From Clostridia bacterium (GTDB lineage: Bacteria; Bacillota; Clostridia; Oscillospirales; CAG-272), in contig JAGDBK010000068.1 in NCBI GenBank assembly GCA_017959065.1, positions 1-62,443 of the forward strand: a stretch of DNA of 62,443 bases, given 5' to 3'. A model generated the notes under the pieces. The model was given only the letters and a program-made list of their open reading frames with translations, had not been told where the DNA came from and searched no databases. Below are positions 22,005 through 44,873 of the stretch, one piece after another. Numbering within the stretch: the first letter of the stretch is position 1; every line of letters starts with the position of its first letter. The translations under genes and the position numbers were made by a program.

Positions 22005-22149
22005 TATCCTGCATCCTGGTCCGAAAAGGCCGGATGCTTTATCAATGAGGCAACGCCGTCCGGCGGTTTTTCCCGCATCATTTCAGGAAGGCCTGCCCCT
22101 TTCAAATAATCCGAAAGGAACCGTCACCCGACGGCAGAGTAAACCGGAT

Positions 22150-22941
22150 TTGTCCGTTGTAATTGCTTTTGCGAACCAGAAAGGCGGAGTGGGGAAGACC
22201 ACCTCGTGCGTGAATATCGCAGCATGCGTCGGAGCGCTCGGAAAAAAGACTCTTTTAATTGATATGGACCCGCAGGGAAACACGACAAGCGGTGTCGGGA
22301 TCAGCAAAAAAAGCATCCGGTTCTCTTCTTATGACCTGCTTTCCGGAGAGGAAAAGGATGAAGCCAAAATCACCAAAACGCGCTTCGCAAATCTGGACAT
22401 AATACCGACTACGATATCGCTTGCAGGCGCGGAATTCGAACTGGTCAACGAAAAAGACCGTGAATACATCTTCAAGAACGGTATCGCCGGGATCCGCGAC
22501 GAGTACGATTACGTTTTTATCGATTGTCCCCCGTCTCTCGGCATCCTTACGATCAACGTCCTCACTGCCGCAGACAGCGTCATCATACCGATGCAGTGCG
22601 AATACTATTCTCTTGAAGGCCTCTCCCAGCTGATGATTACGATCAAGAAGATCAAGCAGCTGTATAATCCCGGTCTCGACCTGTGCGGCATCCTGATAAC
22701 GATGTTCAACGGAAGGCTGAATCTTTCCGCACAGGTGCTGAAAGAAGTAAAAAAATACTATTCAGACAAGCTGTTTTCCGTCCCGGTCGCCCGAAACGTA
22801 AAGCTCTCGGAAGCCCCGGGGTTCGGTGAACCGGTTATTTATCACGACAAGTACTCCAAGGGCGCGCAAAACTACATGGATGTCGCCCAGGAGCTGATCG
22901 AGCGCACAAGATCGTTTGGCGAAGGATCAGGAAAGGAGTAA
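22150..22941 (+). CDS. parA: Chromosome partition ATPase ParA/Soj
   Basis: NQKGGVGKTT, DMDPQGN, DCPPSLG, QCEYY. Start placed at TTG 22150 by family N-terminus; ORF is open from 22045. Confidence 0.96.
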   Translation: MSVVIAFANQKGGVGKTTSCVNIAACVGALGKKTLLIDMDPQGNTTSGVGISKKSIRFSSYDLLSGEEKDEAKITKTRFANLDIIPTTISLAGAEFELVNEKDREYIFKNGIAGIRDEYDYVFIDCPPSLGILTINVLTAADSVIIPMQCEYYSLEGLSQLMITIKKIKQLYNPGLDLCGILITMFNGRLNLSAQVLKEVKKYYSDKLFSVPVARNVKLSEAPGFGEPVIYHDKYSKGAQNYMDVAQELIERTRSFGEGSGKE

Positions 22942-22943
22942 AA

Positions 22944-23825
22944 ATGGCTAAAAAAAGCGGGCTCGGCCGCGGCCTCGATGTCGTCTTCATGGAGAACTCT
23001 CTGGACGATGAGAAACGGGAAAGTTCAACTCTGCTCAGAATATCGCAGATCGAGCCGAGCCATGATCAGCCCAGAAAAAAATTCGACGCCGAATCACTGT
23101 CCGAGCTGGCGGACTCCATCGCAAGCCACGGCCTTATCCAGCCGATCATCGTCCGGCCGATCGCGGACGGCTTTTATCAGATCATAGCCGGAGAAAGAAG
23201 ATGGCGGGCTTCAAAGCTCGCGGGCCTTTCTGAAGTCCCCGTGATCATACGGGAAGCAGATGACCAGACAGCGGCACAGATTGCTCTGATCGAAAACATT
23301 CAGAGGCAGGATCTGAATCCGGTCGAAGAAGCGGAGGGATTTCGTTCACTGATAGAAGAGCACTCCATGACGCAGGAAGAAGTTGCTGCGGCAGTCGGCA
23401 AAAGCAGAAGTGCCGTAACCAATTCTCTCAGGCTTCTGGATCTTCCGGCACAGATCGTCAGTGATCTTAAAAACGGCGACATCACCGCCGGTCACGCCCG
23501 CGCGATCCTTGGTCTCAGGAACCGCGAGGACATGGTCCGGGTCTCTGAAACGGTAAAAGCCAGACATCTTTCTGTAAGATCCACTGAAGAATACGTCAGG
23601 AAGGCAAACTCCAGGGCATCAGCCTCCGCCGCGCAATCTAAACCGGCCGGCGCTCTTTCCATCGACTATCTGGCCGATATAGAGCACAGACTGATGAAGA
23701 CTTTGGGAAGAAAAGTCAGCATCGCGGCAAAAGGAAAAAAGCATAAAATAACCCTTGAGTTCAGCGACGAGGCCGACTTTGAGGAACTTGTCTCTAGACT
23801 GGATCCGGAAATTCTAAAGTACTGA
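22944..23825 (+). CDS. parB: ParB/Spo0J
   Basis: GLGRGLD, QPRK.F, IIAGERRWRA, ENIQRQDL, HTH. Confidence 0.97.
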   Translation: MAKKSGLGRGLDVVFMENSLDDEKRESSTLLRISQIEPSHDQPRKKFDAESLSELADSIASHGLIQPIIVRPIADGFYQIIAGERRWRASKLAGLSEVPVIIREADDQTAAQIALIENIQRQDLNPVEEAEGFRSLIEEHSMTQEEVAAAVGKSRSAVTNSLRLLDLPAQIVSDLKNGDITAGHARAILGLRNREDMVRVSETVKARHLSVRSTEEYVRKANSRASASAAQSKPAGALSIDYLADIEHRLMKTLGRKVSIAAKGKKHKITLEFSDEADFEELVSRLDPEILKY

Positions 23826-23834
23826 TCTCCTCAA

Positions 23835-25254: not shown

Positions 25255-25773
25255 ATGATGCGTAACAGCCTGCTGAAAATCACCCTTTCGAACCCGTCCA
25301 TTTCCTTGTCCATAGTCATCTGGTGTATTTACATAGGTGCCGTAATCGGATGGATCATAGCTCTGTTCAACAAGCTTGTCCCGGGGAGGATAGTCAGAAA
25401 GCTGCTGAATCTGGAGATCGTGTCACCTGAAGACGCGGTCACCGCAGCCGATATAAAGGCCAAAAATCCCCTGATGCTTTTCCTGCTTCGGGACGGATCT
25501 TCGTTAAGGCGGATCGTACGGAGCAAAGAAGAGGCGGATATGGTCTCAGACAGCGCAGAAGGAGAAAAAAAGCAGGTCAGGATACCGGCAAAAAGCCAGC
25601 ATTTCTACATACCGGAAGAAAAAGTGGCTGAAGCCGAAAAAAGATACAGCATATCCGCGGCCGATATCATTGGACTTGTGCTCGGTTCTGTTGTTCTTCT
25701 TGCGGTCGCTTTTATACTCTTCAATTTCGGAATACCTGCGATAATGAACATGATCGAAAGCAATTTCGGATAA
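25255..25773 (+). CDS. Hypothetical membrane protein (2 TM)
   Basis: 172-aa ORF with GAAAGGA SD and N- and C-terminal hydrophobic helices. Confidence 0.75.
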   Translation: MMRNSLLKITLSNPSISLSIVIWCIYIGAVIGWIIALFNKLVPGRIVRKLLNLEIVSPEDAVTAADIKAKNPLMLFLLRDGSSLRRIVRSKEEADMVSDSAEGEKKQVRIPAKSQHFYIPEEKVAEAEKRYSISAADIIGLVLGSVVLLAVAFILFNFGIPAIMNMIESNFG

Positions 25774-25939
25774 TATTGCTCCCACCCTTTTTAAACCGGG
25801 CTCAAAGCCTTAAAGTATTAAGGGCCCCTCACAGTTTTTCACTTTTTCAGAAAGGAGAATGCCGCAAGTCTCTATGGATTTACGGCAGGCAATATCTCTC
25901 GGAACTCAAAACATTCTGGGAAATTGCCAGATTTTTTTG

Positions 25940-26773
25940 ATGAATAATCCTGCTGTCAAAAAAAGACCCCGCGCCCGCAGACGCAGAATGAAGTTCTCTC
26001 ACGTCGTCATAATATGCATAGTGATCGCGCTGATAATGCTGCTGATAACGATAGGCCTTCTTTACGCTCTTGGCCTGAGGTATGTTACCGAATCGCTGTC
26101 CGACGGTTCTCAGGTGGCGTTTTTCGGTTGGATGAAAGACGGCGAAATGGTTTCCGGGACATTGTATTATCCGGGCGGAGTCAACGCAAAATATGACAAA
26201 GAGGCAGGCTTGCTCGTATACTCCGACAAAAGCTGGTATGAAGGCAAGATGTCCGGAATACTGAAGGAAGGCAAAGGTACTTTTTATTACTCGAACGGAG
26301 ACAAATACGAAGGTACGTTCTCCAGAGACAAGATGGACGGGAGCGGAACATATACAACAAAAACAGGACAGTATTATGAAGGCGACTTCAAAGACGGCCG
26401 TTTCGAGGGAAACGGTAAATATGTCTGGGAAGACGGAAGCTATTACGACGGGGCATTCCTGAACGGCAAGAAGCACGGTCAGGGGTCCAGTGTATGGGCA
26501 GACGGGGCCATTTATTCCGGCGGGTACGTCAACGGGCTGAAAGAAGGACAGGGCAAGTACGTCCTTTCTTCCGGTGACATTTACGAAGGCGAATTCAAAA
26601 ACGACATGCGGGACGGGACCGGCAAATACATCTGGTCCAACGGAGACGTTTACGAAGGTGAATTCAAAAACAATCTGATGAACGGAAGAGGTACCATCAC
26701 CTTTGCTTCAGGACGCATCTATACGGGAGAATTCGAGAACGGAAGGATCGTCTGGGCAAACGTCGAGGAATGA
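25940..26773 (+). CDS. Membrane-anchored MORN-repeat protein
   Basis: Basic N-terminus, one TM, then about 7.5 repeats of 23 aa (YEG.F.NG...G.G.Y...G). Start uncertain (25859, 25937 or 25940). Confidence 0.88.
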   Translation: MNNPAVKKRPRARRRRMKFSHVVIICIVIALIMLLITIGLLYALGLRYVTESLSDGSQVAFFGWMKDGEMVSGTLYYPGGVNAKYDKEAGLLVYSDKSWYEGKMSGILKEGKGTFYYSNGDKYEGTFSRDKMDGSGTYTTKTGQYYEGDFKDGRFEGNGKYVWEDGSYYDGAFLNGKKHGQGSSVWADGAIYSGGYVNGLKEGQGKYVLSSGDIYEGEFKNDMRDGTGKYIWSNGDVYEGEFKNNLMNGRGTITFASGRIYTGEFENGRIVWANVEE

Positions 26774-26829
26774 TCGCATACTCCGCACATGTTTTATTCG
26801 ATTATTAGTTTCAACAGAAGGATATAAAA

Positions 26830-28071
26830 ATGAGCAATATTAAAGATGTTTCTCTTGCTCCGTCCGGAAGGGACAAGATAGAATGGGTGAAAAGCTATAT
26901 GCCCGTTCTCTCCCTCATTAATCAGGAATTCTCTGAAACGAAACCCTTCAAAGACCTGAAGGTATCTATGTCGATTCACCTTGAGGCAAAAACCGCATAC
27001 CTTGCAATTACGCTGGCTACAGGCGGGGCGGACGTATACGTGACCGGCTGCAATCCGCTTTCAACTCAGGATGATGTCGCCGCAGCGCTTGTTTCGGACG
27101 GGTTTGAAGTCTTTGCCCATCGCGGGACGACAGAAGCAGAGTACAGGGAAGATCTTATCAGTACTCTTTCGGTCTGTCCGGATCTGATGATAGACGACGG
27201 AGGAGATCTTACCGGTCTACTTCACGGGGATTGTATAGGTTCAGGAAAGAATCTCATCGGCGGAGCGGAAGAGACTACAACAGGTATCCACAGGCTTCTG
27301 GCGAGGGAGGCAAAAGGGCAGCTGCTTTATCCGATGGTAGACGTAAACGACGCAGACTGCAAGCATCTTTTCGACAACCGCTACGGGACGGGCCAGTCAA
27401 CGCTGGACGGAATAATGAACAGCACAAATCTGATAATAGCCGGAAAGACCGTAGTAGTAGCAGGGTACGGATGGTGCGGAAGAGGCATTGCCATGCGCGC
27501 AAAGGGTATGGGCGCCAATGTCATAGTCACTGAGATTAATCCGGTCAAGGCGATAGAAGCGAGGATGGACGGATTCTCCGTAATGCCGATGGACGACGCT
27601 GCACCTCTCGGCGACCTGTTCATTACAGCCACAGGATGCAAAAGCGTGATAAGAAAAGAACATCTAGAAAAGATGAAGGACGGGGTGCTGCTTGCGAACT
27701 CCGGACATTTCGATGTAGAGATAGACAAGATAGCTCTCGAGGACATATCCTGCGAGATATGGCAGAGAAAGCCGAATATCGTCGGATACAGAACCGGAGA
27801 CGGAAGGGTTCTGAACCTGCTGGCGGAAGGCAGGCTGGTCAATCTTGCAGCCGGCAACGGCCATCCCGCGGAAATCATGGATATGAGCTTCGCTATTCAG
27901 GCAAAATCACTTGAATATCTGGTCAAAAATAAAGCCCTTCTGGAGAAAAGAGTTTACCGTGTTCCGGAAGAAATAGATAATGAAGTTGCCTCGCTGAAGC
28001 TCAAAGCAATGGGATCCAGAATCGATATACTGACCGAAGACCAGGAAAGATACCTGCGCGATACGCTATGA
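26830..28071 (+). CDS. ahcY: Adenosylhomocysteinase (SAH hydrolase)
   Basis: HLEAKTA, CNPLSTQD, EETTTG, KHLFDNRYGTGQS, GYGWCGRG, GRLVNL...GHP. Confidence 0.97.
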   Translation: MSNIKDVSLAPSGRDKIEWVKSYMPVLSLINQEFSETKPFKDLKVSMSIHLEAKTAYLAITLATGGADVYVTGCNPLSTQDDVAAALVSDGFEVFAHRGTTEAEYREDLISTLSVCPDLMIDDGGDLTGLLHGDCIGSGKNLIGGAEETTTGIHRLLAREAKGQLLYPMVDVNDADCKHLFDNRYGTGQSTLDGIMNSTNLIIAGKTVVVAGYGWCGRGIAMRAKGMGANVIVTEINPVKAIEARMDGFSVMPMDDAAPLGDLFITATGCKSVIRKEHLEKMKDGVLLANSGHFDVEIDKIALEDISCEIWQRKPNIVGYRTGDGRVLNLLAEGRLVNLAAGNGHPAEIMDMSFAIQAKSLEYLVKNKALLEKRVYRVPEEIDNEVASLKLKAMGSRIDILTEDQERYLRDTL

Positions 28072-28072
28072 A

Positions 28073-28104
28073 AAAACGGCCCGATCTAATGATCGGGCCG
28101 TTTT
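28073..28104. terminator. Bidirectional intrinsic terminator between ahcY and cysS
   Basis: AAAACGGCCCGATC-TAAT-GATCGGGCCGTTTT between convergent genes. Confidence 0.92.
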
Positions 28105-28118
28105 GTTCCTTTATAAGA

Positions 28119-29540
28119 TTATTTTTCCACTACGGTATATGTCGTTCCTTCCCTGGTATCCGTCAGCATAACGCCTTTTTCTGAAAGCATCTCCCGTATA
28201 CTGTCCGCGCGGGCAAAATCCTTGTCTATTTTCGCCTGTGCTCTCTCGGATATCATCTTCCCGATCCATTCGGCAAAGTCGCTGTCGATCGAAGTCTCTT
28301 TACTGTTCCGTTTTTCTTCCGCAGCTTTAAGAAGATTCAGCGAAAGAACATCGTCTATCTCCGCTATCGCGCTGAGTTTATCCGCATCGGAAGCTGAAGA
28401 CTTCAATACATCATAGATGGCTGTTATGGCAAGAGACGTATTGAGGTCATTGTCCATCGCTTTGTAAAAAGGCGCCGTCAGAATACTGACCTTCTCTCTG
28501 TCTGCTTCACATGATCCTTTTTCCAGAGAGGCGATCTTTGATATCAGTTTTTCATATGCTGCTTTGGCATTGTCAAGCGCCTCATAGGAAAATGCCAAAG
28601 ATTTCCTGTAATGGGAAAGCAGACAGAAAAACCTGTATACCATCGGGTCATATCCTTTTTCCTTCAGAAGGGAGACCGTCAGGAACTCTCCGCTCGATTT
28701 GGACATCTTGCCTGTCGGAGTGTTCAGATGATGAACATGGAACCAGTAATTGCACCATTTATGGCCCAGATACGCCTCGCTCTGTGCGATCTCGTTTGTA
28801 TGGTGGGGGAAAATGTTGTCAACTCCTCCGCAATGAATGTCCACTCTCTCTCCGAGATTGCTGATGCAGATCGCTGAACACTCTATATGCCATCCGGGAT
28901 ATCCGAGACCCCACGGGGAATTCCATTTCAGCTCCTGATCCTCAAATTTCGACTTTGTAAACCAGAGGACAAAATCCGTCTTGTTCCTCTTGTTGGAATC
29001 CTCGTCCACGCCCTCCCTTACACCGACCTCAAGGTCTTCAGCCTCATTGTTTGAAAGAACATAGTAGTTATCCAGACGTGAAGTATCAAAATAAACATTT
29101 CCGCCGGCCAGATACGCATATCCGCCATCAATCAGGCCGGTGATCATTTTAATAATACTGCCTATGCTTTTTGTCGCCGGGACTACGATATCCGGCTTTT
29201 TTATGTTCAGTTCCCTGCAATCGGAAAAGAACGCATCCGTGTAGAACTTTGCGATCTCCATCACGGATTTTTTTTCGCGCTTTGCTCCCTTGAGCATCTT
29301 GTCTTCGCCTGTGTCCGCATCGCTTGAAAGATGGCCGACGTCCGTAATGTTCATCACCCTTGTGACTTCATAATGCTTTCTGAGATACTTTTCAAGAACA
29401 TCCTCTTCAATATAGCTTCTCAGATTGCCTATGTGCGCAAAATGATAAACTGTGGGGCCGCAGGTATACATTTTTACCCTGCCTGCCTCATTCGGGACAA
29501 ATTCTTCAATCGTTCTGGTCTGTGTGTTGAATATTTTCAT
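28119..29540 (-). CDS. cysS: Cysteine--tRNA ligase
   Basis: CGPTVY, HIGN, GWHIECS, FPHH.NE, KMSKS. Confidence 0.98.
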   Translation of the reverse strand: MKIFNTQTRTIEEFVPNEAGRVKMYTCGPTVYHFAHIGNLRSYIEEDVLEKYLRKHYEVTRVMNITDVGHLSSDADTGEDKMLKGAKREKKSVMEIAKFYTDAFFSDCRELNIKKPDIVVPATKSIGSIIKMITGLIDGGYAYLAGGNVYFDTSRLDNYYVLSNNEAEDLEVGVREGVDEDSNKRNKTDFVLWFTKSKFEDQELKWNSPWGLGYPGWHIECSAICISNLGERVDIHCGGVDNIFPHHTNEIAQSEAYLGHKWCNYWFHVHHLNTPTGKMSKSSGEFLTVSLLKEKGYDPMVYRFFCLLSHYRKSLAFSYEALDNAKAAYEKLISKIASLEKGSCEADREKVSILTAPFYKAMDNDLNTSLAITAIYDVLKSSASDADKLSAIAEIDDVLSLNLLKAAEEKRNSKETSIDSDFAEWIGKMISERAQAKIDKDFARADSIREMLSEKGVMLTDTREGTTYTVVEK

Positions 29541-29541
29541 A

Positions 29542-30297
29542 TTATTCTGCTCTATTTCCTGTTTCTAATTCAGCGAGCCGCTTTTCCAGCATGCTGATTT
29601 CGTCTTTAAGTTTCATTATTTCTTGAGCGACCGGGTCCGGAATATGGATCTGGTCGAGATCGCAGTCCGTAACTTTTTCGCCGTTGCGTCTGGTCACTTT
29701 CGCCGGTATACCGACTGCGGTACTGTTGTCCGGAACTTCATTCAACACAACTGCGTTTGCGGCGATCTTTGAATTATTTCCAACCCTAAACGGGCCGAGC
29801 ACTTTTGCGCCTGCCCCGACCATTACATTATCCCCAAGGGTCGGATGGCGCTTTCCGCTGTCCTTTCCGGTTCCGCCGAGCGTCGCGCCCTGATAGATGG
29901 TACAGTTGTCGCCTATCTCGGCTGTCTCGCCTATGACGACGCCGGACCCGTGGTCTATGAACAGCCCCTTGCCTATTTTTGCTCCGGGATGGATTTCAAT
30001 GCCTGTAAGCAGTCTTGCTGTCTGGCTTACCGTTCTTGCAAGAGAATACATTCTTCTCCTGTATAGTTCGTGAGATATCCTGTAGCACAGAAGCGCGTGA
30101 AGTCCCGAATAGAGAAACAGAACCTCCAGGGAAGACTTTGCTGCGGGGTCTCTTTCTTTTATTATCTCTATTTCTTCCCTTATCTGATTGTAAAGGTTTC
30201 TGAACTCGGATGGACATTTTTTCAGTTTTTTCACATAACACGCCGATTTGTCCGCCATAATCCTTTTAATGTTGGAAAAATCAATGTAACTTCCCAT
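29542..30297 (-). CDS. cysE: Serine O-acetyltransferase
   Basis: RDPAA, TGIEIHPGA, IDHG.GVVIGET, TLGGTGK..GKRHP. Confidence 0.97.
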   Translation of the reverse strand: MGSYIDFSNIKRIMADKSACYVKKLKKCPSEFRNLYNQIREEIEIIKERDPAAKSSLEVLFLYSGLHALLCYRISHELYRRRMYSLARTVSQTARLLTGIEIHPGAKIGKGLFIDHGSGVVIGETAEIGDNCTIYQGATLGGTGKDSGKRHPTLGDNVMVGAGAKVLGPFRVGNNSKIAANAVVLNEVPDNSTAVGIPAKVTRRNGEKVTDCDLDQIHIPDPVAQEIMKLKDEISMLEKRLAELETGNRAE

Positions 30298-30351
30298 CTT
30301 TCATTCCTCCTTCCATGTCAGATAGAGATTTCCGTTTAAAACTTATTCTTC

Positions 30352-30380
30352 ATTATATATCTTATTCACGGTTTTTGCAA
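30352..30380 (-). promoter_or_regulatory. Sigma-A promoter of cysE-cysS
   Basis: Minus strand TTGCAA-17 nt-TATAAT. Confidence 0.7.
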
Positions 30381-30573
30381 CAACCTTGAACCGTAACCAC
30401 ATCACTGCCGAAAAGTTTACAAAAAATTTTCATTTTGGTGTTTTTTCCTATGTTTGTCTTTAAAGATCAAAAAAAAGCGGGTTTTTTCACCCATAATTCT
30501 GATTAATCTCCCTTGACACATACAAACTGCACAAATCATTGAGCAGCTCTCATTTGTGTTTTTAAGAGAAAAG

Positions 30574-30602
30574 TTGTTATTTTTCTTTAATAATGATATA
30601 AT
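30574..30602 (+). promoter_or_regulatory. Sigma-A promoter of dnaA
   Basis: TTGTTA-17 nt-TATAAT with extended TG. Confidence 0.65.
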
Positions 30603-30779
30603 TTCTATAAATATATATAAATATATATAATCATTTATAATGTAATTCAGACCGGTTCAGCAGACTAGACCAAAAACAATTGCGGAATAATACCGCAGAT
30701 AATTTTGACCATAGGAGAATGCAGGAAGACTACGGCCGGTGATTTATCTTCCACCTGGTGCGAAAGCCTGCCAACAGTT

Positions 30780-32198
30780 ATGAATTCAAATACTGATATC
30801 GGGAAAATATTCTCTCTCGTCCTTGACACACTAAAGGGCGAAATGTCACAGAGTTCGATCAATCTCTGGTTCGGTGACGTGGTTCTGTTTCATCTCGACG
30901 ATAAAAGAGCCGTGCTTTTAGGTAAAAGCGAATTCAAAAGCGACATCGCCAGAAAACGCTATAAGAAACTGCTCGAGGACAAGTTCAACGATGTCCTTGG
31001 TTTTCCTGTGACCGTTTATGTGTTCTCTGAAGAAAAAGGAGGCGTTCCCGCAGACTATCTGACTCTGCCGGGGAAAGACGATCCCCCGGAATCTCAGGCT
31101 CAGAAACAGGAAAACAATCCTTCCGATATAAAAGCAGGATATGATTATTTTTCCACCGGCGACGAAAACAGAAAACCGACCACGAACTTCTACAACCGGG
31201 ATTATACCTTCAGCAACTTTATAGTCGGAAGCTCCAACAAATTTGCTCATGCAGCATGTATTGCCGTAGCGGAAAACCCCGCGACCGCATACAATCCGCT
31301 TTTCATTTACGGAAACAGCGGACTCGGTAAAACTCATCTTCTCTATGCGATCACGAACGATATCATCTCCAAGCATCCGGAGATGAATATAGTTTACGTG
31401 AGAAGCGAGGATCTGATCAATCAGCTTATAGAAGCTTTTTCAAAAAAAGAAACCGCCCTGTTCAGAGAAAAATACAGATCTGCCGATGTCCTGCTGGTGG
31501 ATGATATCCAGTTTATCGCAGGAAAAGAAGCTCTTCAGGAAGAATTCTTTCATACTTTCAATACGCTTTACGATGCGAGTAAACAGATAATACTGACATC
31601 AGACAGACCGCCAAGAGATATAAAAACCCTTGAAGACAGACTCCGCGGACGGTTTGAGTGGGGCCTGATAGTCGATATACAGCCGCCGGATTTTGAATTG
31701 AGGATCGCAATCCTGAAAGCAAAATCCGAATCGCTGGGCCTTAAGATTCCGAACGAGGTTCTTACCTATCTCGCAGAGAAACTGCAGGATAACATCAGAC
31801 AAATTGAAGGCATTATCAAGAAGATGGGCGCGAAGAGTTTTCTGTCCGGTGTTCCGATATCTCTGGATACTGCAAGAGAAGCGGTTTCTGAACTTATTAC
31901 AGGAAACGAACCGGTTCACGTCACAATAGAAAAAATACTGTCCACGGTATCGGCAAAATACAATGTATCAATTGAAGACCTCAAAGGCAGACGCCGTACA
32001 AAGGACATTGCGAAAGCAAGACATATTGCAATTTATCTGATAAAACAGATGACCGACATCCCCCTGACGAACATAGCAAGGGTCTTTGAAAGAGATCACA
32101 CAACTATCATGTCTTCGGTTGAAGTAATCGAAAGGGAAATAAGAGAAAATCCGTCTACGGAGCTTGAGATCAGCGAACTGAAAAAAGAAATGAAGTAA
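30780..32198 (+). CDS. dnaA: Chromosomal replication initiator DnaA
   Basis: YTFSNF, YNPLFIYGNSGLGKTHL, DDIQF, QEEFFHTFN, RDHTT. Start placed at ATG 30780. Confidence 0.98.
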   Translation: MNSNTDIGKIFSLVLDTLKGEMSQSSINLWFGDVVLFHLDDKRAVLLGKSEFKSDIARKRYKKLLEDKFNDVLGFPVTVYVFSEEKGGVPADYLTLPGKDDPPESQAQKQENNPSDIKAGYDYFSTGDENRKPTTNFYNRDYTFSNFIVGSSNKFAHAACIAVAENPATAYNPLFIYGNSGLGKTHLLYAITNDIISKHPEMNIVYVRSEDLINQLIEAFSKKETALFREKYRSADVLLVDDIQFIAGKEALQEEFFHTFNTLYDASKQIILTSDRPPRDIKTLEDRLRGRFEWGLIVDIQPPDFELRIAILKAKSESLGLKIPNEVLTYLAEKLQDNIRQIEGIIKKMGAKSFLSGVPISLDTAREAVSELITGNEPVHVTIEKILSTVSAKYNVSIEDLKGRRRTKDIAKARHIAIYLIKQMTDIPLTNIARVFERDHTTIMSSVEVIEREIRENPSTELEISELKKEMK

Positions 32199-32600: not shown

Positions 32601-32699
32601 AAATTATAAATACGGGCATCGCCCTGTCAACCGAAAGGAGGACCGTCATACATGACGGGCAGCGATCTGAATTCGAACGGATAGCTGCATTATATTACA

Positions 32700-33851: not shown

Positions 33852-33860
33852 AGGGAAGGC

Positions 33861-35302: not shown

Positions 35303-35341
35303 TTCAAGCAAAATCATAACTGATGAGGAAAGGACCAATAA

Positions 35342-37255
<1,914 letters not shown>

Positions 37256-37265
37256 CAGGATGGAT

Positions 37266-38213
37266 ATGGCAGAAAGAATAATAACCGTGGCTCTGAACCC
37301 GGCGATAGACAGAAACATGTATTTCGGGCATTTTTCGACGGGGACGTTGAACAGGACCGTACGGAAAACACTGTTGTCCGTCGGGTCAAAGGCGATGAAC
37401 GTGGCCTGTGTAGTCAGGGCATACGGAGGTAATTCGGCGTGCCTGTTCTTCTCGGGAGGTACAGGCGGCGAATTTCTCGAAAAAAAGCTGGAAGAGGCCG
37501 GGGTTTTATCCATAAAGGTCCCTACATCTTGCGGTGTCAGGGAAAACATAAAGATATTTGACGCTGACGGCGTTCAGACGGAAGCAAATGATTCCGGGGG
37601 GCCGTATTCGGAGTCCGAATTTCGCGAGATCGAGGATCATCTCAGATCATTGGCGGACAAAAAGACTGTTTTCGTTTTTTCCGGAAGCCTTCCGGCAGGC
37701 TGTCCACTAGATTATTACGGAAGTCTGATAGAAATAGTCAAAGAAGCCGGGTCTTATGCTGTCCTGGACTGCGACGGTGAACCGCTGAAAAACGGACTCA
37801 GGGCATGCCCCGTTCTAATCAAGCCGAATTTGAGAGAACTTGAGGAACTGCTGTCAGTCAGGCTGGAGAGTATCGAAGACGCAAAGAATGCGGTCAGAAC
37901 AGCGGCAGAAAAATTCCATACAGATGTCGTCGGCACTCTGGGCGAGCACGGATCGGTCTTTTCTTCAAAAGACGGAGATGTATACACGGTCAGATGCCAG
38001 GAACAGATCAAACCTGCCGGGCTGGCTGGCGCGGGAGATACTTATCTAGGGGTGTACTGCACCGAACGGTATATAAGAGGAAGCACAGCGGAGGTTTCGC
38101 TGAAATATGCCGCTTCTGCTGCCGCGGCAAAGATCCAGGTTCCGGGAACCGGTATCCCGGATGGCCCTGAAATGAGAAGATACTATGACCGAATAGAAGT
38201 CCGGCGGGTCTGA
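37266..38213 (+). CDS. 1-phosphofructokinase/tagatose-6-phosphate kinase family (PfkB) sugar kinase
   Basis: ITVALNPAID, SGSLP, IKPNLREL, GAGD. Confidence 0.88.
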   Translation: MAERIITVALNPAIDRNMYFGHFSTGTLNRTVRKTLLSVGSKAMNVACVVRAYGGNSACLFFSGGTGGEFLEKKLEEAGVLSIKVPTSCGVRENIKIFDADGVQTEANDSGGPYSESEFREIEDHLRSLADKKTVFVFSGSLPAGCPLDYYGSLIEIVKEAGSYAVLDCDGEPLKNGLRACPVLIKPNLRELEELLSVRLESIEDAKNAVRTAAEKFHTDVVGTLGEHGSVFSSKDGDVYTVRCQEQIKPAGLAGAGDTYLGVYCTERYIRGSTAEVSLKYAASAAAAKIQVPGTGIPDGPEMRRYYDRIEVRRV

Positions 38214-38260
38214 CAAATCAGAAAAAAGAAGCCGGACTAACTAGGAAAAGGAGATAAAAA

Positions 38261-40825
38261 TTGGCACGCAAGGAAAGCACGGAGAACTTTGAATATCCGG
38301 ATCAGAAAATTATCAACGTAAATATGGAGCATGAGCTGAAACAGTCTTTCATTGAATACTCCATGAGCGTAATCATAAGCAGGGCGCTTCCGGATGTTAG
38401 GGACGGGATGAAGCCTGTTCACAGGCGAATACTGTATGCCATGTACGAGGATCATCTTACCCATGACAAGGATTTTTACAAGTCCGCGACGACGGTAGGA
38501 AATGTTCTCGGGCGCTATCATCCCCACGGAGACAGTTCCGTATACGATGCCATGGTCAGACTGGCTCAGCCTTTTTCGCTGAGATATCCTCTTATCGAGG
38601 GACAGGGAAACTTCGGTAACGTCGACGGAGATCCTCCGGCCGCATACCGTTATACCGAGGCAAGGCTGTCAAGAATAGCCGGAGACATGCTTTCCGACAT
38701 TGACAAAAATGTAGTTGATTTCATGCCCAATTTCGACAATAGGAGAAAAGAACCTGTTGTGCTTCCCTCGCGGTTCCCGAACCTGTTGGTCAACGGATCC
38801 GTTGGAATTGCAGTGGGTATGGCCACAAATATACCGACGCACAATCTCCGCGAGGTCATTGACGGTACCGTTTATCTGATGGATCATCCTGATGCGGAGC
38901 TTTCGGATCTTATGAACTACATCAAAGGCCCGGACTTTCCGACCGGGGCACTGATTTACGGATCGAACGGCATAATCGAAGCGTATAAGACCGGCAGAGG
39001 AAAAGCGCTGGTCAGGTCGAGGGTCGAGATCGACGATGAGGAAAAAAGACTTATCGTCACCGAGATCCCGTATCAGGTCAACAAGAGCATGCTGGTCGAA
39101 GCAATAGCCAACCTCCACAAGGACAAGAGGGTCGACGGCATAACCGGGATCAGAGACGAGTCTTCCGAAGAGGCGGGACTCCGTATCGTTATAGAACACC
39201 GCCGCGATGTCAACGGCCAGATACTTCTGAATCAGCTGTACAAATACTCCCAGCTTCAGGACACCTGCGCCATCAATATGCTGGCGATAGTAAACGGAGA
39301 ACCTAAGATACTGGGTCTGAAGGCGATCCTTCAGCATTATATCGCCCATCAGGAGGAAGTAGAGACAAGAAGAGTCAGATTCGATCTTGAAAAGGCGGAA
39401 CAGGAAGCCCATATTTTCCAGGGGTATAAAATAGCGATAGACAATATCGACAGAGTTATAGAAATAATTCGGGCTTCTCAGTCCGTACAGGATGCAAAGG
39501 AGCAGCTGTGTCAGGAATTCTCTCTCACGGACGTTCAGGCGCAGGCAATCGTTGAAATGACTCTGGGACGTCTTTCAGGTCTTGAAAGAAAGAAGATAGA
39601 GGACAGGCTTGAGAAGCTTCAAGAGATCATTGCAGATCTCAAAGGGATCCTGGCCGATGAGGGAAGACTCAAGGAGATCATCAAGGCTGATCTTATCAAG
39701 ATCAGGGACAAATACGGTGACGACAGAAAGACCGAACTGGTTCCCGCGGAAGAGGAGATCGTATACGAGGATCTGATTGAAAGACACAAGTGCGTGATTA
39801 CGATGACACACACAGGATACATTAAGCGTCAGCCTGCGTCGGCATACTCCGCCCAGCGCCGCGGCGGCAAGGGGATAATCGGAATGACGACGAAGGAAGA
39901 GGACTTCATCGAAAATGTGAGCGTGGTTTCAAGCCACTCGTTTATCCTGTTCTTTACGAATCTGGGGCGCGTATATATGAAGAAGGCGTACCAGATTCCG
40001 GAAGCGGGCAGAGCGGCAAAGGGATCCAACATCGTTAACATCCTCGAACTTTCTGAAAGCGAAAAGATAACTTCGGGAATATCGGTTGACGGATTCTCCG
40101 ACAGTGAATATCTGGTAATGGTCACAAAGCGTGGAGTAGTCAAGAGGGTAACCCTTTCCGAATTTGAATATCAGAGGAAAAACGGAAAGAAGGCGATCGA
40201 GCTGGACGAAGGGGATGAGCTTCAGTTCGTTCTGCATACGGACGGCTCTGCGAATATCATCATCGCCTCCCACAACGGCATGTCAGTTTATTATGATGAA
40301 AACGAAGTCCGCGTAATGGGAAGGACCGCAAGGGGCGTCAGGGCTATCAAACTGTCCGAAAATGATTACGTAGTGGGAGTAGCCCTGGCTGACAAGAACA
40401 GACACCTGCTCACAGTCACCGAGAACGGATTCGGAAAGAGGACGTCGTTCGATGAATTCAGGCTCATGCTTCACAGAGGCGGAAAAGGCGTCACGTGCCA
40501 CAAGATATCCGAGAAGACCGGAAAGCTTTGCGGTATAGCGGCTGTGGATGAAACGGACGACGTGATGATGATAACCAACGGCGGAACTATTATCCGCACG
40601 CCTGTCAGCGGAATACCCGTTTACGGCAGGGGCGCAGGCGGAGTAATAGTAATGAGACTCGGCGAAGGCGCGACTTTGGTCAATTTTGCAATGGTTGAAA
40701 AGGATCCGGACGAGGACGAAATCGGAGATGAAACGAATGAAGGCGTTCTGCCGGAAGGCGAAGAGTTCGTCTCTGATGATTTTGCCGATTCGGAGAAAGC
40801 AGAGGAAGAGAGTGAAGAGATTTAA
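38261..40825 (+). CDS. gyrA: DNA gyrase subunit A
   Basis: [20 protein letters not shown], GyrA-box QRRGGKG, acidic tail; TTG start. Confidence 0.98.
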
Positions 40826-41498
40826 CAGGATTGCCGTGATTGCGGCGGTTGCCGTGTTGTTCGGTTTTGTTGTCGGATGCGCTCCCGCTCCTATCGATAT
40901 TTCGGATGAACGTATCCAGCCTGTTCTTCAGGTCCTGCTTGAAAAGGCGGCGGAGCTGAATGAGATCTACTACGGCACAGGTCTTCCGGTGAACAAAACA
41001 GAGGACGCAAAGTTTTATGAACTGTCGGATGAGGCAAAATACAAGAATTCTGATGAACTGAAAGCAGCCACATACAGGGTCTTTTCGGATGATCTTGCAT
41101 CGCAGATGTTTACAGTAGGAGTCCAGGGCATTTACGATGACGACAGTGATAAGACTGGGATAGATATGGGGCTCAATTCGCGCTACACGAGTATTCTGGG
41201 AGTGTTTTGCATGAGAGCATCCATGTCCGAACCGCTGTTTGAGCTCGGCAGAGAGTACGATATATCCTCGGCAAAGATAACCAGCAGAGGAAGCAAATAC
41301 ATTGAAGTCAGCATAATGAGCGAAAAAGACGGCGAAAAAGCGGAAATAACACTTACACTCGTCCCGGCATACACCCAGAAAGGGGATTCGGGTCCTGCAG
41401 AATTGAGTGAAGATAATGAAAAGACGGAAACAGCAGCCGACGCAGGAGAGCTGCTAGATAAGCCGGAGAACTGGAGACTCGATACTCCGACGTATTAA
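40812..41498 (+). CDS. Hypothetical lipoprotein
   Basis: GTG 40812 overlaps the gyrA end; signal [23 protein letters not shown] (lipobox). Confidence 0.78.
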
Positions 41499-41634
41499 AG
41501 TAAACGGATTATCACCGTTCAATCAATCGGCAGAAAACCATTATTGTTAACGAATAACGATACAGCAACTAGAAAGGAGATAGCAGGAGAAAAGCATTTC
41601 GGAAAGAAAGGCAGAATATCCTGCGGTGCGTTCG

Positions 41635-42750
41635 ATGAAGAAACCAGTTAAGAAGGAAGCGGTTCTCCCTCAGGATCAGACAGATAAGCAAAAGGCCCTC
41701 TCAACAGCCATTTCGCAAATGGAAAAGAATTACGGCAAAGGCATAATAATGAAACTCGGAGACAGCGCGGAAATGAACGTTTCGGCCGTATCCACCGGAT
41801 CGCTGTCGCTTGATATGGCTCTCGGTGTCGGAGGACTTCCGAGAGGAAGGATAGTCGAGATCTATGGTCCGGAGTCTTCGGGAAAAACGACCGTTGCACT
41901 TCACGCGGTCGCCGAAGTTCAGCGTCTTGGCGGACAGGCTGCATTTATCGACGCTGAACATGCGCTTGACCCGGTATATGCAAAAGCGCTTGGCGTAAAC
42001 ATCGACGAACTGCTGGTCTCTCAGCCCGACAGCGGGGAACAGGCGCTCGACGTGACAGAATCGCTTGTCCGTTCAGGAGCTGTGGATATAGTTGTTATTG
42101 ACTCGGTTGCAGCGCTGGTGCCCCAGGCCGAGATAGAGGGCGACATGGGGCAGAGTCACGTAGGTCTGCAGGCAAGGCTCATGAGTCAGGCACTAAGAAA
42201 ACTGTCCGGTTCTATTTCTAAAACGAATTGTATCGTGATTTTCATAAACCAGCTGAGAGACAAAGTCGGAGTTATGTACGGAAGCCCGGAAGTCACCTCG
42301 GGGGGACGTGCTCTGAAGTACTATTCTTCCGTCAGAATTGATGTAAGGAAGACAGAGAGCCTCAAGTCCGGCAACGAGGTCTACGGAAACAGAACAAGGG
42401 CAAAAGTAGTCAAAAACAAGGTTGCCGCACCGTTTAAGATAGCTGAGTTCGATATCCTTTACGGAAAGGGGATCTCCAAATCCGGAGAAGTGCTCGACAT
42501 GGCGATCGAACTTGACATCATTCAGAAGAGCGGCGCATGGTTCTCATATGGCGGAGAAAGAATCGCGCAGGGAAGAGAGAACGCGAGAAAATATCTTGAG
42601 TCCAACCCGGATATTATGAAAGCCATCGAAGAAAAGGTTAAAGAACTGTACCGTAACGCGGATATAGACGAACTTGAAAAGAAGTCTCTGGAAAAAGATG
42701 AGCTTGAAGGAGACGAGTTCGATATCCGTGTTCTCGATATGGAGGACTGA
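41635..42750 (+). CDS. recA: Recombinase RecA
   Basis: [31 protein letters not shown]. Start is ATG 41635 or GTG 41626. Confidence 0.99.
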
Positions 42751-42751
42751 T

Positions 42752-43387
42752 TTGACGGCCCGAATAACGGAGGTCAGCCTTGTTTCCGACGGAAGCGGAG
42801 CAAATGTCTCTCTCGTTTTCCCGGAGGGAGAGAAACGGGTTTACACTGTTTCGGAAAGCTGCTATGAAGATTGGAAGAAGGCGGAGGGAAAAACAATTTC
42901 CGAAGAGGAAGTGGCTTCGCTTGAATCCCTTTCCGAATATCGCAAGGCCTTTATCAAAGCCCTTCAGCTGCTTGAATACGGTGAACTGACAGAAAAAGGA
43001 CTTGCTTTCAAGTTACGGGCAAGGGGTTTTTCCTCAGAATCAATTGAAACCGCTGTCGCGCAGGTCAAGGCAAAAGGACTGATCCGAGAGGAAGACTTCG
43101 CAGACAGAGCGGTCCGCTATTATGTTGAAAAGAAAAACTACGGCCGCGCGAGAATCATGGCAGAGATGTTTAAAAAAGGCTTTTCTAAGGACAGCGTCGA
43201 CTCTGCGCTCGGAAAAGTGGCTGACGAGGAAATAGTCGAAGCGTGCAGGAAACAGATCTGCAGGAACAGAAGCCTTGCGATAAAACTAGCCGGTGATGCC
43301 GCAAACAGAAATAAAGCATATGCCGCCCTTATAAGGCAGGGCTTTACTGTTTCAGAAATCAAAGAAGCCGAAAAGACTGAGAGCTGA
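42752..43387 (+). CDS. recX: Regulatory protein RecX
   Basis: Follows recA; three-helix repeats (KL..RGF, YG..RI..E...KG, L.RQGF); TTG start with GGAGGA SD. Confidence 0.88.
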   Translation: MTARITEVSLVSDGSGANVSLVFPEGEKRVYTVSESCYEDWKKAEGKTISEEEVASLESLSEYRKAFIKALQLLEYGELTEKGLAFKLRARGFSSESIETAVAQVKAKGLIREEDFADRAVRYYVEKKNYGRARIMAEMFKKGFSKDSVDSALGKVADEEIVEACRKQICRNRSLAIKLAGDAANRNKAYAALIRQGFTVSEIKEAEKTES

Positions 43388-43547
43388 TTTTTCCGCTTAT
43401 CGTCTAAAATGACTGAAAAGAACAAACAAATGGCCGTACGGCTTCTGTAACAAACAGAAAGGAGAACGCCGCAGAGTCAGAGGACTTTGCCGGCAAATGA
43501 TTCCTCGGCACCTGAATGGGCAAACAGGGATCTGATTTCACATTCGG

Positions 43548-44873
43548 ATGAAAATAAATGTTATTTCGCTGGGTTGCCCGAAAAATCAGGTTGATCTGGA
43601 GGTAATGGCAGCGGTACTCGAAGAAAAAGGACACGTGCTTGTAAACGAGGATATCGATGCGGACATTGTCATTATTAACACCTGCGCTTTTATTGAGGAA
43701 GCTGTAAAGGAATCGATAGACAACATCCTTGACGAAGCATGGCTCAAGAAAAACCGCGGGCTGAAAGGGATTATTGTCAGCGGATGTCTTGCGGAACGGT
43801 ACGGGGAACAGATATTCAGAGAAATGCCCGAGGTGGATGCGGTAATAGGCGCTGGCAGCATACATGATATTTGCGAAGCGGTGGAAGCGGTCTCTGAAGG
43901 CAGAAAGTTCACATCGCTCAAGCCAATCGATGAGATGGAACTGGGAGGGACGAGGAAACTTACAGGTCCCTGCTATTCCAACTATCTGAAGATCGCGGAA
44001 GGGTGCGATAATCACTGTACATACTGCGTAATTCCCCAGATCCGCGGGCGATACAGATCGAGAAAGATGGAGGATCTGATAGAGGAAGCCCGTTCCCTTC
44101 AGAAGAAAGGCGTCAAAGAGCTTATTCTCGTTGCTCAGGACACTACAAGATACGGTACAGACATATACGGAAAGAAGATGCTGCCACGGCTTTTAAAGGA
44201 ACTTGCCGACAAGACGGAAATACCGTGGATACGCGTTTTATACTGTTATCCGGAAGAGGTGGATGAAGAACTCGCGGAAGCGATCAACTACAGCGATCGC
44301 ATACTCCCGTATATCGATCTTCCCGTCCAGCATATTTCCGATGCCGTGCTGAATCGCATGAACCGCAGAGGAGGAGAAAAAGCAGTAAGGGAAGCAGTGG
44401 CTCTTCTCAGAAAAAAGGTGAAGGACCTTGTTCTCAGAACGACTTTGATAGTAGGATTTCCCGGTGAGACAGAGGAGGATGTCAGACAGCTTTGCGAATT
44501 TGTCGATGAAGTGAAATTCGATCATCTCGGAGTGTTTACCTATTCGAGAGAAGAAGATACACCCGCTTCACTCATGCCCGGCCAGATCGATGAAAAGATC
44601 AAGGAAGAAAGAAAAGAAGCGGTTATGCGCAGACAGCTTGACATCTGCAGCGTCAAAAACGAGGAAAAGGTTGGACAGACGATCGAGGTCATCTGCGAGG
44701 GATACGATGTGGTTGCGGAAACGTATTTCGGAAGAAGCCGCGGAGACGCTCCGGAGATAGACGGAAAGGTCTTTTTCACCGGCAAAAAGGCTATTGCGCC
44801 GGGGACATTCGTGAATGTCAAAATCGAAAAAGCGATAGATTATGATCTGATCGGAAAGACGGTCAATAGTTGA
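43548..44873 (+). CDS. rimO: Ribosomal protein S12 methylthiotransferase RimO
   Basis: SLGCPKNQVD, NTCAFI, CDNHCTYC radical SAM motif, DAPEIDG. Confidence 0.96.
   Translation: MKINVISLGCPKNQVDLEVMAAVLEEKGHVLVNEDIDADIVIINTCAFIEEAVKESIDNILDEAWLKKNRGLKGIIVSGCLAERYGEQIFREMPEVDAVIGAGSIHDICEAVEAVSEGRKFTSLKPIDEMELGGTRKLTGPCYSNYLKIAEGCDNHCTYCVIPQIRGRYRSRKMEDLIEEARSLQKKGVKELILVAQDTTRYGTDIYGKKMLPRLLKELADKTEIPWIRVLYCYPEEVDEELAEAINYSDRILPYIDLPVQHISDAVLNRMNRRGGEKAVREAVALLRKKVKDLVLRTTLIVGFPGETEEDVRQLCEFVDEVKFDHLGVFTYSREEDTPASLMPGQIDEKIKEERKEAVMRRQLDICSVKNEEKVGQTIEVICEGYDVVAETYFGRSRGDAPEIDGKVFFTGKKAIAPGTFVNVKIEKAIDYDLIGKTVNS

What the first reader, a model, noticed from the sequence alone, without database searches (positions are those of the whole stretch)
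22113..43550. Recurrent 'split' ribosome-binding sites: strong SD, then hairpin(s), then a short unpaired stretch, then the start codon, in six core genes
Seen in sequence. rimO: AGAAAGGAG 43456-64, stems 43468-94 and 43495-538, 9 nt, ATG. dnaN: GAAAGGAGG 32633-41, abutting stems 32643-58 and 32659-88, 11 nt, ATG. MORN gene: AGAAAGGAG 25849-57, stems 25861-86 and 25888-928, 8-11 nt, TTG/ATG. recA: AGAAAGGAG 41571-79, stem 41583-624, then GTG after 1 nt or ATG after 10 nt. dnaA: AGGAG 30713-17, structured 30721-71, 8 nt, ATG. parA: GAAAGGA 22113-19, stem 22121-34, 15 nt, TTG. In each, the stem starts 1-3 nt after the SD and there is no good SD next to the start. The stems differ in sequence, so the architecture recurs rather than a repeat. 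Established: hairpins that loop out to bring a distant SD near the start are known as isolated cases (phage T4 genes 38 and 25, Thermus thrS). Inference: this lineage may use this mode systematically, on genes enriched for replication, segregation and repair, which could allow folding-dependent translational control. Alternative: these are STAB-SD-like 30S-binding mRNA stabilisers.
Basis: partly seen in the sequence, partly recalled or inferred. Interest (0 to 1): 0.85.

Follow-up and report, generated by a model that had tools for sequence, protein, structure and literature searches.

The report
Hairpin-interrupted ribosome-binding sites, lineage-wide
In this uncultured gut bacterium about twenty genes, including dnaA, dnaN, recA and parA, have a folded RNA segment wedged between the ribosome-docking signal and the start codon, an arrangement so far known only from a few isolated phage and E. 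coli genes.

Summary

New points:
- In congeners the same genes have an ordinary SD 7-14 nt before the same start. In this genome a 20-113 nt, GC-rich, folding segment therefore sits inside the ancestral spacer. Of 13 genes compared, 10 are split only here. Three (parA, secG-like, lspA) are split in all four genus members, with compensatory stem changes.
- The pattern is genome-wide: 22 strict cases in 1229 called genes, against 3.6±1.7 from shuffles and 6.1±2.1 from a positional control. A congener has 2 of 507 and an order-level relative 0 of 338.
- The affected genes are functionally diverse, not replication-specific.
- The inserts are unique sequences, not a repeat family.

Best reading: split ribosome-binding sites of the phage T4 gene 25/38 type that work by loop-out. 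This is inferred; translation was not tested. An SD relic or 30S-parking stabiliser is the main rival. I rate it a new variant of a known kind.

The parts
22113..22119 (+). parA distal SD (GAAAGGA)
   Evidence: It aligns with the SD of congeners' parA leaders. In the MFE fold with flanks it can pair with CCUUUC 22098-22103.
22121..22134 (+). parA spacer hairpin (5 bp), followed by a 15-nt tail 22135-22149 and start TTG 22150
   Evidence: -7.3 kcal/mol, z -1.48. A hairpin sits at the same place in all 4 genus genomes; 2 of 5 pairs changed on both sides. The 26 loci of other genera show ordinary SDs.
25849..25857 (+). MORN-repeat gene distal SD (AGAAAGGAG)
   Evidence: The congener G002 has an ordinary SD about 10 nt before the equivalent ATG.
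25860..25928 (+). MORN spacer, two abutting hairpins (25860-87, 25888-928); 11-nt U-rich tail; start ATG 25940 (TTG 25937 in frame)
   Evidence: -27.2 kcal/mol, z -4.83. The inner stem 25915-31 plus the U-run is also called terminator-like.
30713..30717 (+). dnaA distal SD (AGGAG)
   Evidence: Congeners G002 and G003 have GAAAGGA 7-8 nt before the equivalent ATG.
30721..30771 (+). dnaA spacer domain closed by GCAGG/CCUGC; 8-nt tail; start ATG 30780
   Evidence: -15.6 kcal/mol, z -0.63: not better than shuffles. The N-terminus MNSNTDIGKIFSLV aligns with congeners' MTSDADIGSIFSLV.
32633..32641 (+). dnaN distal SD (GAAAGGAGG)
   Evidence: Congeners have ordinary SDs.
32643..32688 (+). dnaN spacer, two abutting hairpins (32643-58, 32659-88); 11-nt tail; start ATG 32700
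   Evidence: -22.3 kcal/mol, z -6.44, 0 of 200 shuffles as good.
32652..32684 (+). possible 10-codon upstream ORF in the dnaN leader; its ATG lies 10 nt after the SD and its stop 15 nt before the dnaN ATG
   Evidence: MTGSDLNSNG*. Its AUG lies partly in the 3' strand of hairpin 1.
41571..41579 (+). recA distal SD (AGAAAGGAG)
   Evidence: Congeners have GAAAGGA(G) 10-12 nt before ATG.
41583..41624 (+). recA spacer hairpin closed by GCAGGA/UCCUGC; 10-nt tail; start ATG 41635
   Evidence: -14.8 kcal/mol, z -2.38. [12 protein letters not shown] aligns with [12 protein letters not shown] in G003. An independent DNA contig and an RNA-library contig cover it without indels.
43456..43464 (+). rimO distal SD (AGAAAGGAG)
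   Evidence: Congeners have ordinary SDs.
43468..43532 (+). rimO spacer, two hairpins (43468-94, 43499-532); 15-nt tail; start ATG 43548
   Evidence: -29.1 kcal/mol, z -3.29. An RNA-library contig spans 43346-43588 uninterrupted.

Best explanation
These are split (noncontiguous) ribosome-binding sites.

The gene's original SD is still in place. A lineage-specific, GC-rich segment of 20-113 nt now lies between it and the start codon. The segment folds into one or two hairpins whose base starts 0-4 nt after the SD and ends about 5-16 nt before the start.

Folding loops the insert out, so the unpaired nucleotides left between SD and start (median 11) come close to the ordinary spacing in this genome (median 9). 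A 30S subunit docked on the SD can then place the start codon in the P site, as shown experimentally for phage T4 genes 25 and 38.

Shown here: the anatomy, its excess over controls, the ancestral state in relatives, and conservation of three of the hairpins through compensatory changes.

Inferred: that the distal SD is the one used, that folding is required, and any regulatory use of the fold.
For: 1. Start codons and ancestral state. In 13 genes compared with congeners, 10 have an ordinary SD 7-14 nt before the same start in every congener locus recovered: rimO, dnaN, recA, dnaA, MORN, SpoU methylase, CN hydrolase, ABC ATPase and two ABC permeases. The N-termini align.
2. Three leaders (parA, secG-like, lspA) are split in all 4 genus genomes and ordinary in other genera (26 and 26 loci for parA and secG). 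Pairs changed on both sides: lspA 3 of 14, secG 2 of 8, parA 2 of 5.
3. Genome-wide excess. There are 22 strict cases among 102 genes that lack a proximal SD but have a distal one. Dinucleotide shuffles give 3.6±1.7 (maximum 7 in 30). Random SD placement in the same leaders gives 6.1±2.1.
4. Geometry and composition. Exterior unpaired nucleotides have a median of 11 (range 5-22), against ordinary spacing of median 9 (IQR 7-10). The 3' tails are 36.8% GC, like ordinary spacers (39.6%); the folded part is 57% GC.
5. The distal SDs are strong: 8 nt or more in 11 of 23, against 92 of 402 ordinary SDs of 6 nt or more (p=0.011). A decaying relic would not be expected to look like this.
6. Only 3 of 23 have a start codon 4-13 nt after the SD, so upstream ORFs do not explain the class.
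7. The inserts are real DNA. An independent DNA run carries the recA and rimO leaders without indels, and RNA-library contigs bridge both leaders.
8. Precedent: T4 gene 38 (22 nt reduced to 5) and gene 25 (27 nt reduced to 11), with mutational and probing support (passages in PMC3014915, section 29).
Against: - No translation data of any kind.
- dnaA (z -0.63) and parA (z -1.48) do not fold better than shuffles.
- Intergenic DNA is generally hairpin-rich here and in relatives: 18.5-21% of leader windows have z<-2. Perfect-hairpin density upstream of starts shows no peak at -5 to -15.
- A structure-first scan gave only 6 of 149.
- By my crude calls, 479 of 1229 genes lack a proximal SD of 5 nt or more. 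SD-independent initiation is therefore probably common, and these starts may not need the distal SD.
- About 3-4 of the strict set look like false positives, with G-rich or 4-nt proximal SDs.
- With flanks included, the SD pairs with upstream sequence in the MFE for parA and MORN.
- Inserts of 80-113 nt with two hairpins are much larger than the T4 precedents.
- RNA-library contigs cannot prove transcription.
Confidence: 0.6

Rival explanations
1. The distal SD no longer directs initiation. After the insertion, the start is used SD-independently through its AU-rich unpaired tail. The old SD survives as a 30S parking site that shields the mRNA from 5'-to-3' decay (STAB-SD-like) or raises the local ribosome concentration (standby-like).
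For: - STAB-SD sequences bind 30S without directing initiation and block RNase J1 (passages in PMC4113751, section 13).
- This genome has an RNase J homologue (625.8 bits, cut-off 400).
- Many genes here lack a strong proximal SD (479 of 1229 by my calls).
- The distal SDs are unusually strong, which also fits a parking site.
Against: - A STAB-SD leader keeps its own RBS at the start; none is present here.
- The SD is positionally the orthologue of the working SD in congeners.
- The hairpin base abuts the SD and leaves a spacer-like tail. A parking site does not need this, yet it exceeds the positional control (22 against 6.1).
- Hairpins at parA, secG and lspA are kept by compensatory changes.
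Confidence: 0.22
2. The SD serves a short upstream ORF or an N-terminally extended start, and the main gene is translated by coupling or reinitiation.
For: dnaN: ATG 32652 lies 10 nt after GGAGG and opens a 10-codon ORF ending 15 nt before the dnaN ATG. In the strict set, 3 of 23 have a start codon 4-13 nt after the SD.
Against: - 20 of 23 have no such start codon.
- In MORN and dnaA the only nearby ATG is 1 nt after the SD.
- The 25859 extension has no counterpart in the congener.
- The dnaN upstream AUG is partly inside hairpin 1.
Confidence: 0.06
3. The hairpins are independent regulatory devices (attenuators, protein or ligand binding sites, processing sites) that happen to lie in the leader. 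The SD-hairpin-start geometry is a by-product.
For: - The MORN second hairpin plus U-run is terminator-like.
- The parA leader has a perfect anti-SD and alternative outer helices that differ in sequence between two genus members.
- Regulation and loop-out are not exclusive.
Against: - No Rfam family reaches its gathering score in any leader.
- The inserts share no sequence.
- 1 of 5 leaders in 25700-44000 is terminator-like.
- The affected genes are functionally unrelated.
Confidence: 0.08
4. Chance co-occurrence of SD-like words and hairpins in hairpin-rich intergenic DNA, combined with mis-assigned starts.
For: Background hairpin content is high. A loose criterion gives 39 observed against 28.4 expected. 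Some automated cases are false.
Against: Strict counts are 22 against 3.6 and 6.1. Orthologue comparison of 13 genes supports the starts and the ancestral SDs. The control genome gives 0 of 338 genes.
Confidence: 0.04

Closest known systems
Split translation-initiation regions of phage T4 genes 38 and 25 (Gold 1988; Nivinskas et al. 1999; Malys & Nivinskas 2009), as described in passages of PMC3014915 section 29 and PMC7297116 section 9
   Same: The SD and the start codon are too far apart in sequence. A stable hairpin between them reduces the spacing to a functional one (22 to 5 nt; 27 to 11 nt). There is no second SD. The arrangement arose within a subgroup of relatives and is conserved there. 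It can sit at an intercistronic junction, as in T4 genes 26-25 and here in the three ABC-transporter cistrons.
   Different: - Here it occurs in a bacterial chromosome, in about 20 genes including dnaA, dnaN, recA, infB and lspA.
- The inserts reach 113 nt, often with two abutting hairpins.
- Most arose in one lineage after it split from its congeners.
- Function is untested.
E. coli thrS split ribosomal binding site (Sacerdot et al. 1998; title and description seen in passages of PMC7297116)
   Same: A hairpin interrupts the ribosome-binding region, and the ribosome tolerates a looped-out helix.
   Different: In thrS the SD is normally spaced from the start. The hairpin (the ThrS operator) separates an upstream single-stranded enhancer from the SD. 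Here the hairpin lies between the SD and the start.
STAB-SD 5' mRNA stabiliser of Bacillus thuringiensis cry3A (Agaisse & Lereclus 1996; passages of PMC4113751 section 13)
   Same: A strong SD-like word far upstream of the start in a Gram-positive-type leader. It could bind 30S and block RNase J, and an RNase J homologue is present.
   Different: STAB-SD does not direct initiation, and the gene keeps its own RBS. Here there is no proximal SD, the distal SD is the orthologue of the working SD of relatives, and a hairpin base abuts it.
Ribosome standby sites (de Smit & van Duin model; listed: PMC5934652, PMC7708055, PMC3936740; search listings only)
   Same: The 30S is held on the mRNA at a distance from a structured element.
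   Different: Standby sites are single-stranded regions beside an RBS that is itself sequestered. Here both the SD and the start are unpaired and the structure lies between them.

Membership tests
Split (noncontiguous) RBS, T4 gene 25/38 type | The SD-to-start distance in sequence is beyond the working range | tested here: met
   The six window genes have 30-83 nt. The strict set of 23 has 24-113 nt, against ordinary spacing of median 9 (IQR 7-10).
Split (noncontiguous) RBS, T4 gene 25/38 type | The intervening RNA folds into a stable structure that brings SD and start to a working distance | tested here: met
   In silico only. The 5' tail is 0-4 nt, the 3' tail 5-16 nt, and exterior unpaired nucleotides have a median of 11. 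Four of six window spacers have z of -2.4 or lower. The count is 22 against 3.6 (shuffles) and 6.1 (positional control). No probing data.
Split (noncontiguous) RBS, T4 gene 25/38 type | No other SD at working distance from the start | tested here: met
   By construction for the strict set (no match of 5 nt or more at spacing 4-13). By eye for the six. A few strict cases have G-rich or 4-nt proximal matches.
Split (noncontiguous) RBS, T4 gene 25/38 type | Structure is conserved among relatives that share the split arrangement | tested here: met
   parA, secG-like and lspA: the hairpin is at the same place in 4 of 4 genus genomes. Pairs changed on both sides are 2 of 5, 2 of 8 and 3 of 14. With only 4 sequences each this is weak statistically.
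Split (noncontiguous) RBS, T4 gene 25/38 type | Destabilising the hairpin lowers translation; the distal SD is required | not testable with these tools
   Needs reporters or toeprinting.
STAB-SD 5' stabiliser | The SD-like word does not direct initiation; the gene has its own separate RBS | tested here: not met
   No proximal SD in the six or in the strict set. The distal SD corresponds to the ordinary SD of congeners.
STAB-SD 5' stabiliser | It lies close to the mRNA 5' end and stabilises the transcript against RNase J | not testable with these tools
   5' ends are unknown, since contigs cannot show ends. An RNase J homologue is present.
Upstream ORF / translational coupling | A start codon at working distance after the SD opens a short ORF that ends near the main start | tested here: not met
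   3 of 23 in the strict set. Among the six, only dnaN. In dnaA and MORN the ATG is 1 nt after the SD.
Interspersed repeat / MITE / REP-like element | Copies share sequence | tested here: not met
   blastn-short of 41 spacers against the genome gave self hits only, plus 16-19 nt chance matches.
Known structured RNA families (riboswitches, leaders) | A match to an Rfam covariance model at its gathering score | tested here: not met
   The only hit in the window is STnc490 at 62318-62435, outside all leaders.
Intrinsic terminator / attenuator | A GC-rich hairpin followed by a U-run | tested here: not met
   In 25700-44000, only the MORN leader (25915-31 plus U-run) of 5 leaders is called.

The most novel reading that the evidence does not exclude
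In this rumen lineage a directed process, either a mutational mechanism aimed at the few nucleotides after the SD or positive selection, repeatedly builds GC-rich folding domains exactly inside SD-start spacers. Translation of some 2% of genes, including dnaA, dnaN, recA, infB, lspA and a whole ABC operon, would then depend on RNA folding. That would amount to a dispersed, structure-gated translational regulon with no shared sequence motif. Spacers are only about 5% of noncoding DNA, and overall hairpin density is no higher than in relatives, so random insertion alone fits poorly.
Probability: 0.2. Interest if true: 0.85.

Novelty: new variant of a known kind. Interest (0 to 1): 0.64.

Why it matters
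Split ribosome-binding sites have been treated as curiosities of a few phage and E. coli genes. Here a bacterial lineage shows them in about twenty chromosomal genes, several of them essential.

The ancestral ordinary state is preserved in sister species, which makes this a set of natural before-and-after pairs. They could show:
- how much structure, and what geometry, the 30S platform tolerates between the SD and the P site;
- how such inserts arise;
- whether folding is used for control.

The finding also matters for annotation. Gene callers that look for an SD next to the start will mis-place these starts or add false N-terminal extensions, such as the ORFs from 25859, 30705 and 22045.

Tried and rejected
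- **Exterior-unpaired count alone** did not separate real spacers from shuffled ones.
- **First criterion** (MFE of -5 or lower only) was too loose: 39 observed against 28.4 expected. I added an energy-density threshold.
- **Structure-first scan.** Folding 140 nt upstream of each start and looking for an SD 5' of the last domain gave only 6 of 149, with a small local peak. Global folds absorb the SD into long-range pairs, so I replaced this with the positional control.
- **Perfect-hairpin density** upstream of starts is flat and similar in the three genomes, so it gives no independent support.
- **Cross-genome bias.** The energy threshold favours the more GC-rich G000 (50.6% against 42.5% and 44.4%). 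The excess over each genome's own shuffles is the fairer figure: G000 18.4 of 1229, G002 1.7 of 507, G033 none of 338.
- **False positives** seen by orthologue comparison: the C78 gene and tsaD on C75. Several low-ranked candidates rest on weak SD matches.
- **Repeat or mobile-element origin:** rejected.
- **Splicing of the insert:** no joint or indel at the recA or rimO leaders in the contigs laid. The other leaders had no informative RNA cover.
- **Leaderless transcripts:** not supported for recA and rimO, whose RNA-library contigs run through the SD. Contigs cannot show ends.
- **Taxon not named.** The genome-contig scan with DnaN found one locus at 22% identity in a Ruminococcus sp. MAG. 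The metagenome-contig scan with RecA returned 80 loci, all 74% identical or less, which is further away than the congeners. They were not analysed.
- **Literature.** Searches found no report of lineage-wide or genome-wide natural split RBSs. One search was largely off-target. Supplements were not consulted. Subscription papers (Nivinskas 1999, Malys 2009, Sacerdot 1998, Agaisse 1996) were seen only through citing passages.
- **My gene calls are crude.** They use my own codon-usage caller with no homology support except for the 13 genes compared. 'No proximal SD' includes mis-called starts.

Full report
**What is there**

The window is contig C52 of an 82%-complete, 1.56-Mb, 50.6% GC metagenome-assembled genome. 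Runs that hold the region carry ruminant gut labels. The taxon was not named; gene order and strong SD use suggest a Clostridia-like Firmicute, which is inference.

Most genes use an ordinary SD. The distance from AGGAG/GGAGG to the next in-frame start peaks at 5-11 nt. At my chosen starts the spacing has a median of 9 (IQR 7-10).

**The six sites**

The spacers fold as described. Z-scores against 200 dinucleotide shuffles:

| Gene | z-score |
|---|---|
| dnaN | -6.44 |
| MORN | -4.83 |
| rimO | -3.29 |
| recA | -2.38 |
| parA | -1.48 |
| dnaA | -0.63 |

The last two are not individually significant. None of the six has an SD near its start.

**Where the genes start**

- rimO: MKINVISLGCPKNQ against MKIAFISLGCPKNQ.
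- dnaN, recA and dnaA.
- MORN.
- parA.

The long ORFs from 25859, 30705 and 22045 are therefore false extensions. ATG 32652 opens only a 10-codon ORF.

**The key comparative result**

In congeners the same genes carry an ordinary SD 7-14 nt before that start. The SD of this genome lines up with theirs, and the folded segment lies between it and the start.

I compared 13 genes:
- Ten are split only in this genome: rimO, dnaN, recA, dnaA, MORN, a SpoU methylase, a CN hydrolase, and the ATPase and both permeases of one ABC operon.
- Three are split in all four genus members and ordinary in the other genera: parA, a SecG-like gene and lspA. Their stems differ by compensatory changes. Pairs changed on both sides are 3 of 14, 2 of 8 and 2 of 5. 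With four sequences each, this is suggestive only.

**Genome-wide count**

I used my own crude gene caller, which gave 1229 genes. Of these, 479 have no proximal SD of 5 nt or more, and 102 of those have a distal SD of 6 nt or more, 15-135 nt upstream.

The strict criterion requires all of the following:
- a 5' tail of 4 nt or less;
- a 3' tail of 5-16 nt;
- 5 or fewer unpaired nt between helices;
- MFE of -5 kcal/mol or lower;
- energy density of -0.30 kcal/mol/nt or lower.

| Test | Observed | Expected |
|---|---|---|
| Strict criterion vs dinucleotide shuffles | 22 | 3.6±1.7 (max 7 of 30) |
| Density -0.25 or lower | 29 | 9.0 |
| Density -0.20 or lower | 34 | 16.1 |
| SD placed at random in the same leaders | 22 | 6.1±2.1 (0 of 100000 simulations reach 22) |

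This positional control matters because intergenic DNA is generally hairpin-rich. Among 60-nt windows upstream of ordinary SDs, 18.7% have z<-2 here, 18.5% in the congener G002 and 21% in G033.

The same pipeline on relatives:

| Genome | Sequence scanned | Called genes | Observed | Expected from shuffles |
|---|---|---|---|---|
| G002 (congener) | 634 kb | 507 | 2 | 0.33 |
| G033 (order-level relative) | 400 kb | 338 | 0 | 0.23 |

Fisher's test for 22 of 102 against 2 of 59 gives p=0.0012. The energy threshold favours the more GC-rich genome, so the two- to four-fold difference in excess is the safer statement. About 3-4 of the strict cases look false.

**Properties of the class**

- Spacers are 24-113 nt.
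- Exterior unpaired nucleotides have a median of 11.
- The 3' tails are 36.8% GC, like ordinary spacers (39.6%); the folded parts are 57% GC.
- The SDs are strong: 8 nt or more in 11 of 23, against 92 of 402 (p=0.011).
- Only 3 of 23 could serve an upstream ORF.
- The inserts are unique sequences.
- No Rfam family matches any leader.
- Functions are diverse: signal peptidase II, IF-2, a PpiC-type lipoprotein, MFS and ABC transporters, GNAT, a DinG-like helicase, dihydroorotase, lipase and others.

**Independent DNA and RNA evidence**

- A DNA run from another study carries the recA and rimO leaders with point differences only (41597, 41602, 43466) and no indels.
- RNA-library contigs bridge the recA leader (41556-41785) and the rimO leader (43346-43588) without a joint.
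- The inserts are therefore not assembly artefacts, and no splicing is seen. Contigs cannot show 5' ends, and an RNA library may hold DNA.

**Interpretation**

The anatomy matches the split translation-initiation regions of T4 genes 38 and 25. There a hairpin reduces the SD-start spacing from 22 to 5 nt and from 27 to 11 nt, and destabilising mutations lower initiation (PMC3014915, section 29; PMC7297116, section 9).

I read the class as split RBSs that work by loop-out (confidence 0.6).

The main rival (0.22) is that these starts are now SD-independent and the old SD acts as a 30S parking site. That is plausible because an RNase J homologue is present and STAB-SD works that way (PMC4113751, section 13). 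However, STAB-SD leaders keep their own RBS, and the abutting geometry and compensatory changes are not needed for parking.

Individual leaders may carry extra devices:
- an anti-SD in parA;
- a terminator-like second hairpin in MORN;
- an upstream ORF in dnaN.

**Novelty**

Six literature searches found only isolated cases. None reported a lineage-wide or genome-wide natural occurrence. The library lacks most subscription papers, and supplements were closed.

I rate the finding a new variant of a known kind. What is new is the scale, the presence in essential chromosomal genes, the size of the inserts, and the recent, datable origin by insertion into ordinary spacers. How the inserts arise is unexplained.

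Noticed in passing
window 62318-62435 (+): Rfam STnc490 (Hfq-binding sRNA family) match, 70.8 bits against a gathering score of 56. This is odd for a Firmicute-like genome.
   Followed up: no
window 32199-32699: The AT-rich dnaA-dnaN intergenic region carries repeated TTTTCCACA-type words. The same words occur upstream of dnaN in congeners. These are probably DnaA boxes of the replication origin.
   Followed up: no
window 22098-22118: CCUUUC 22098-22103 is a perfect complement of the parA SD GAAAGG 22113-22118 and pairs with it in the MFE fold with flanks. An alternative outer helix (AAUCCG/CGGAUU here, a different sequence pair in G003) encloses the SD and the hairpin.
   Followed up: partly
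window 25915-25939: The inner stem of the second MORN-leader hairpin, followed by a run of seven U just before the start, is called terminator-like. It may be an attenuator.
   Followed up: no
G000 contig C20, about 5030-8141 (+): Three consecutive ABC-transporter cistrons (ATPase and two permeases) each have a split RBS. Two of these lie at intercistronic junctions. All three have ordinary SDs in congeners.
   Followed up: yes
window 25859 and 30719: In both the MORN and dnaA leaders an ATG follows the SD after a single nucleotide (AGGAGAATG). The dnaA one opens a 7-codon ORF; the MORN one is in frame with the gene. This is too close for normal SD-directed initiation.
   Followed up: partly
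G000 contig C93:20611-22251 (+): RNase J homologue, 625.8 bits against NCBIfam TIGR00649 (cut-off 400).
   Followed up: no
genome-wide: This genome is 50.6% GC, whereas the congener G002 sample is 42.5%. That is a large gap within one genus-level group, and it may bear on why stable GC-rich inserts accumulate here.
   Followed up: no
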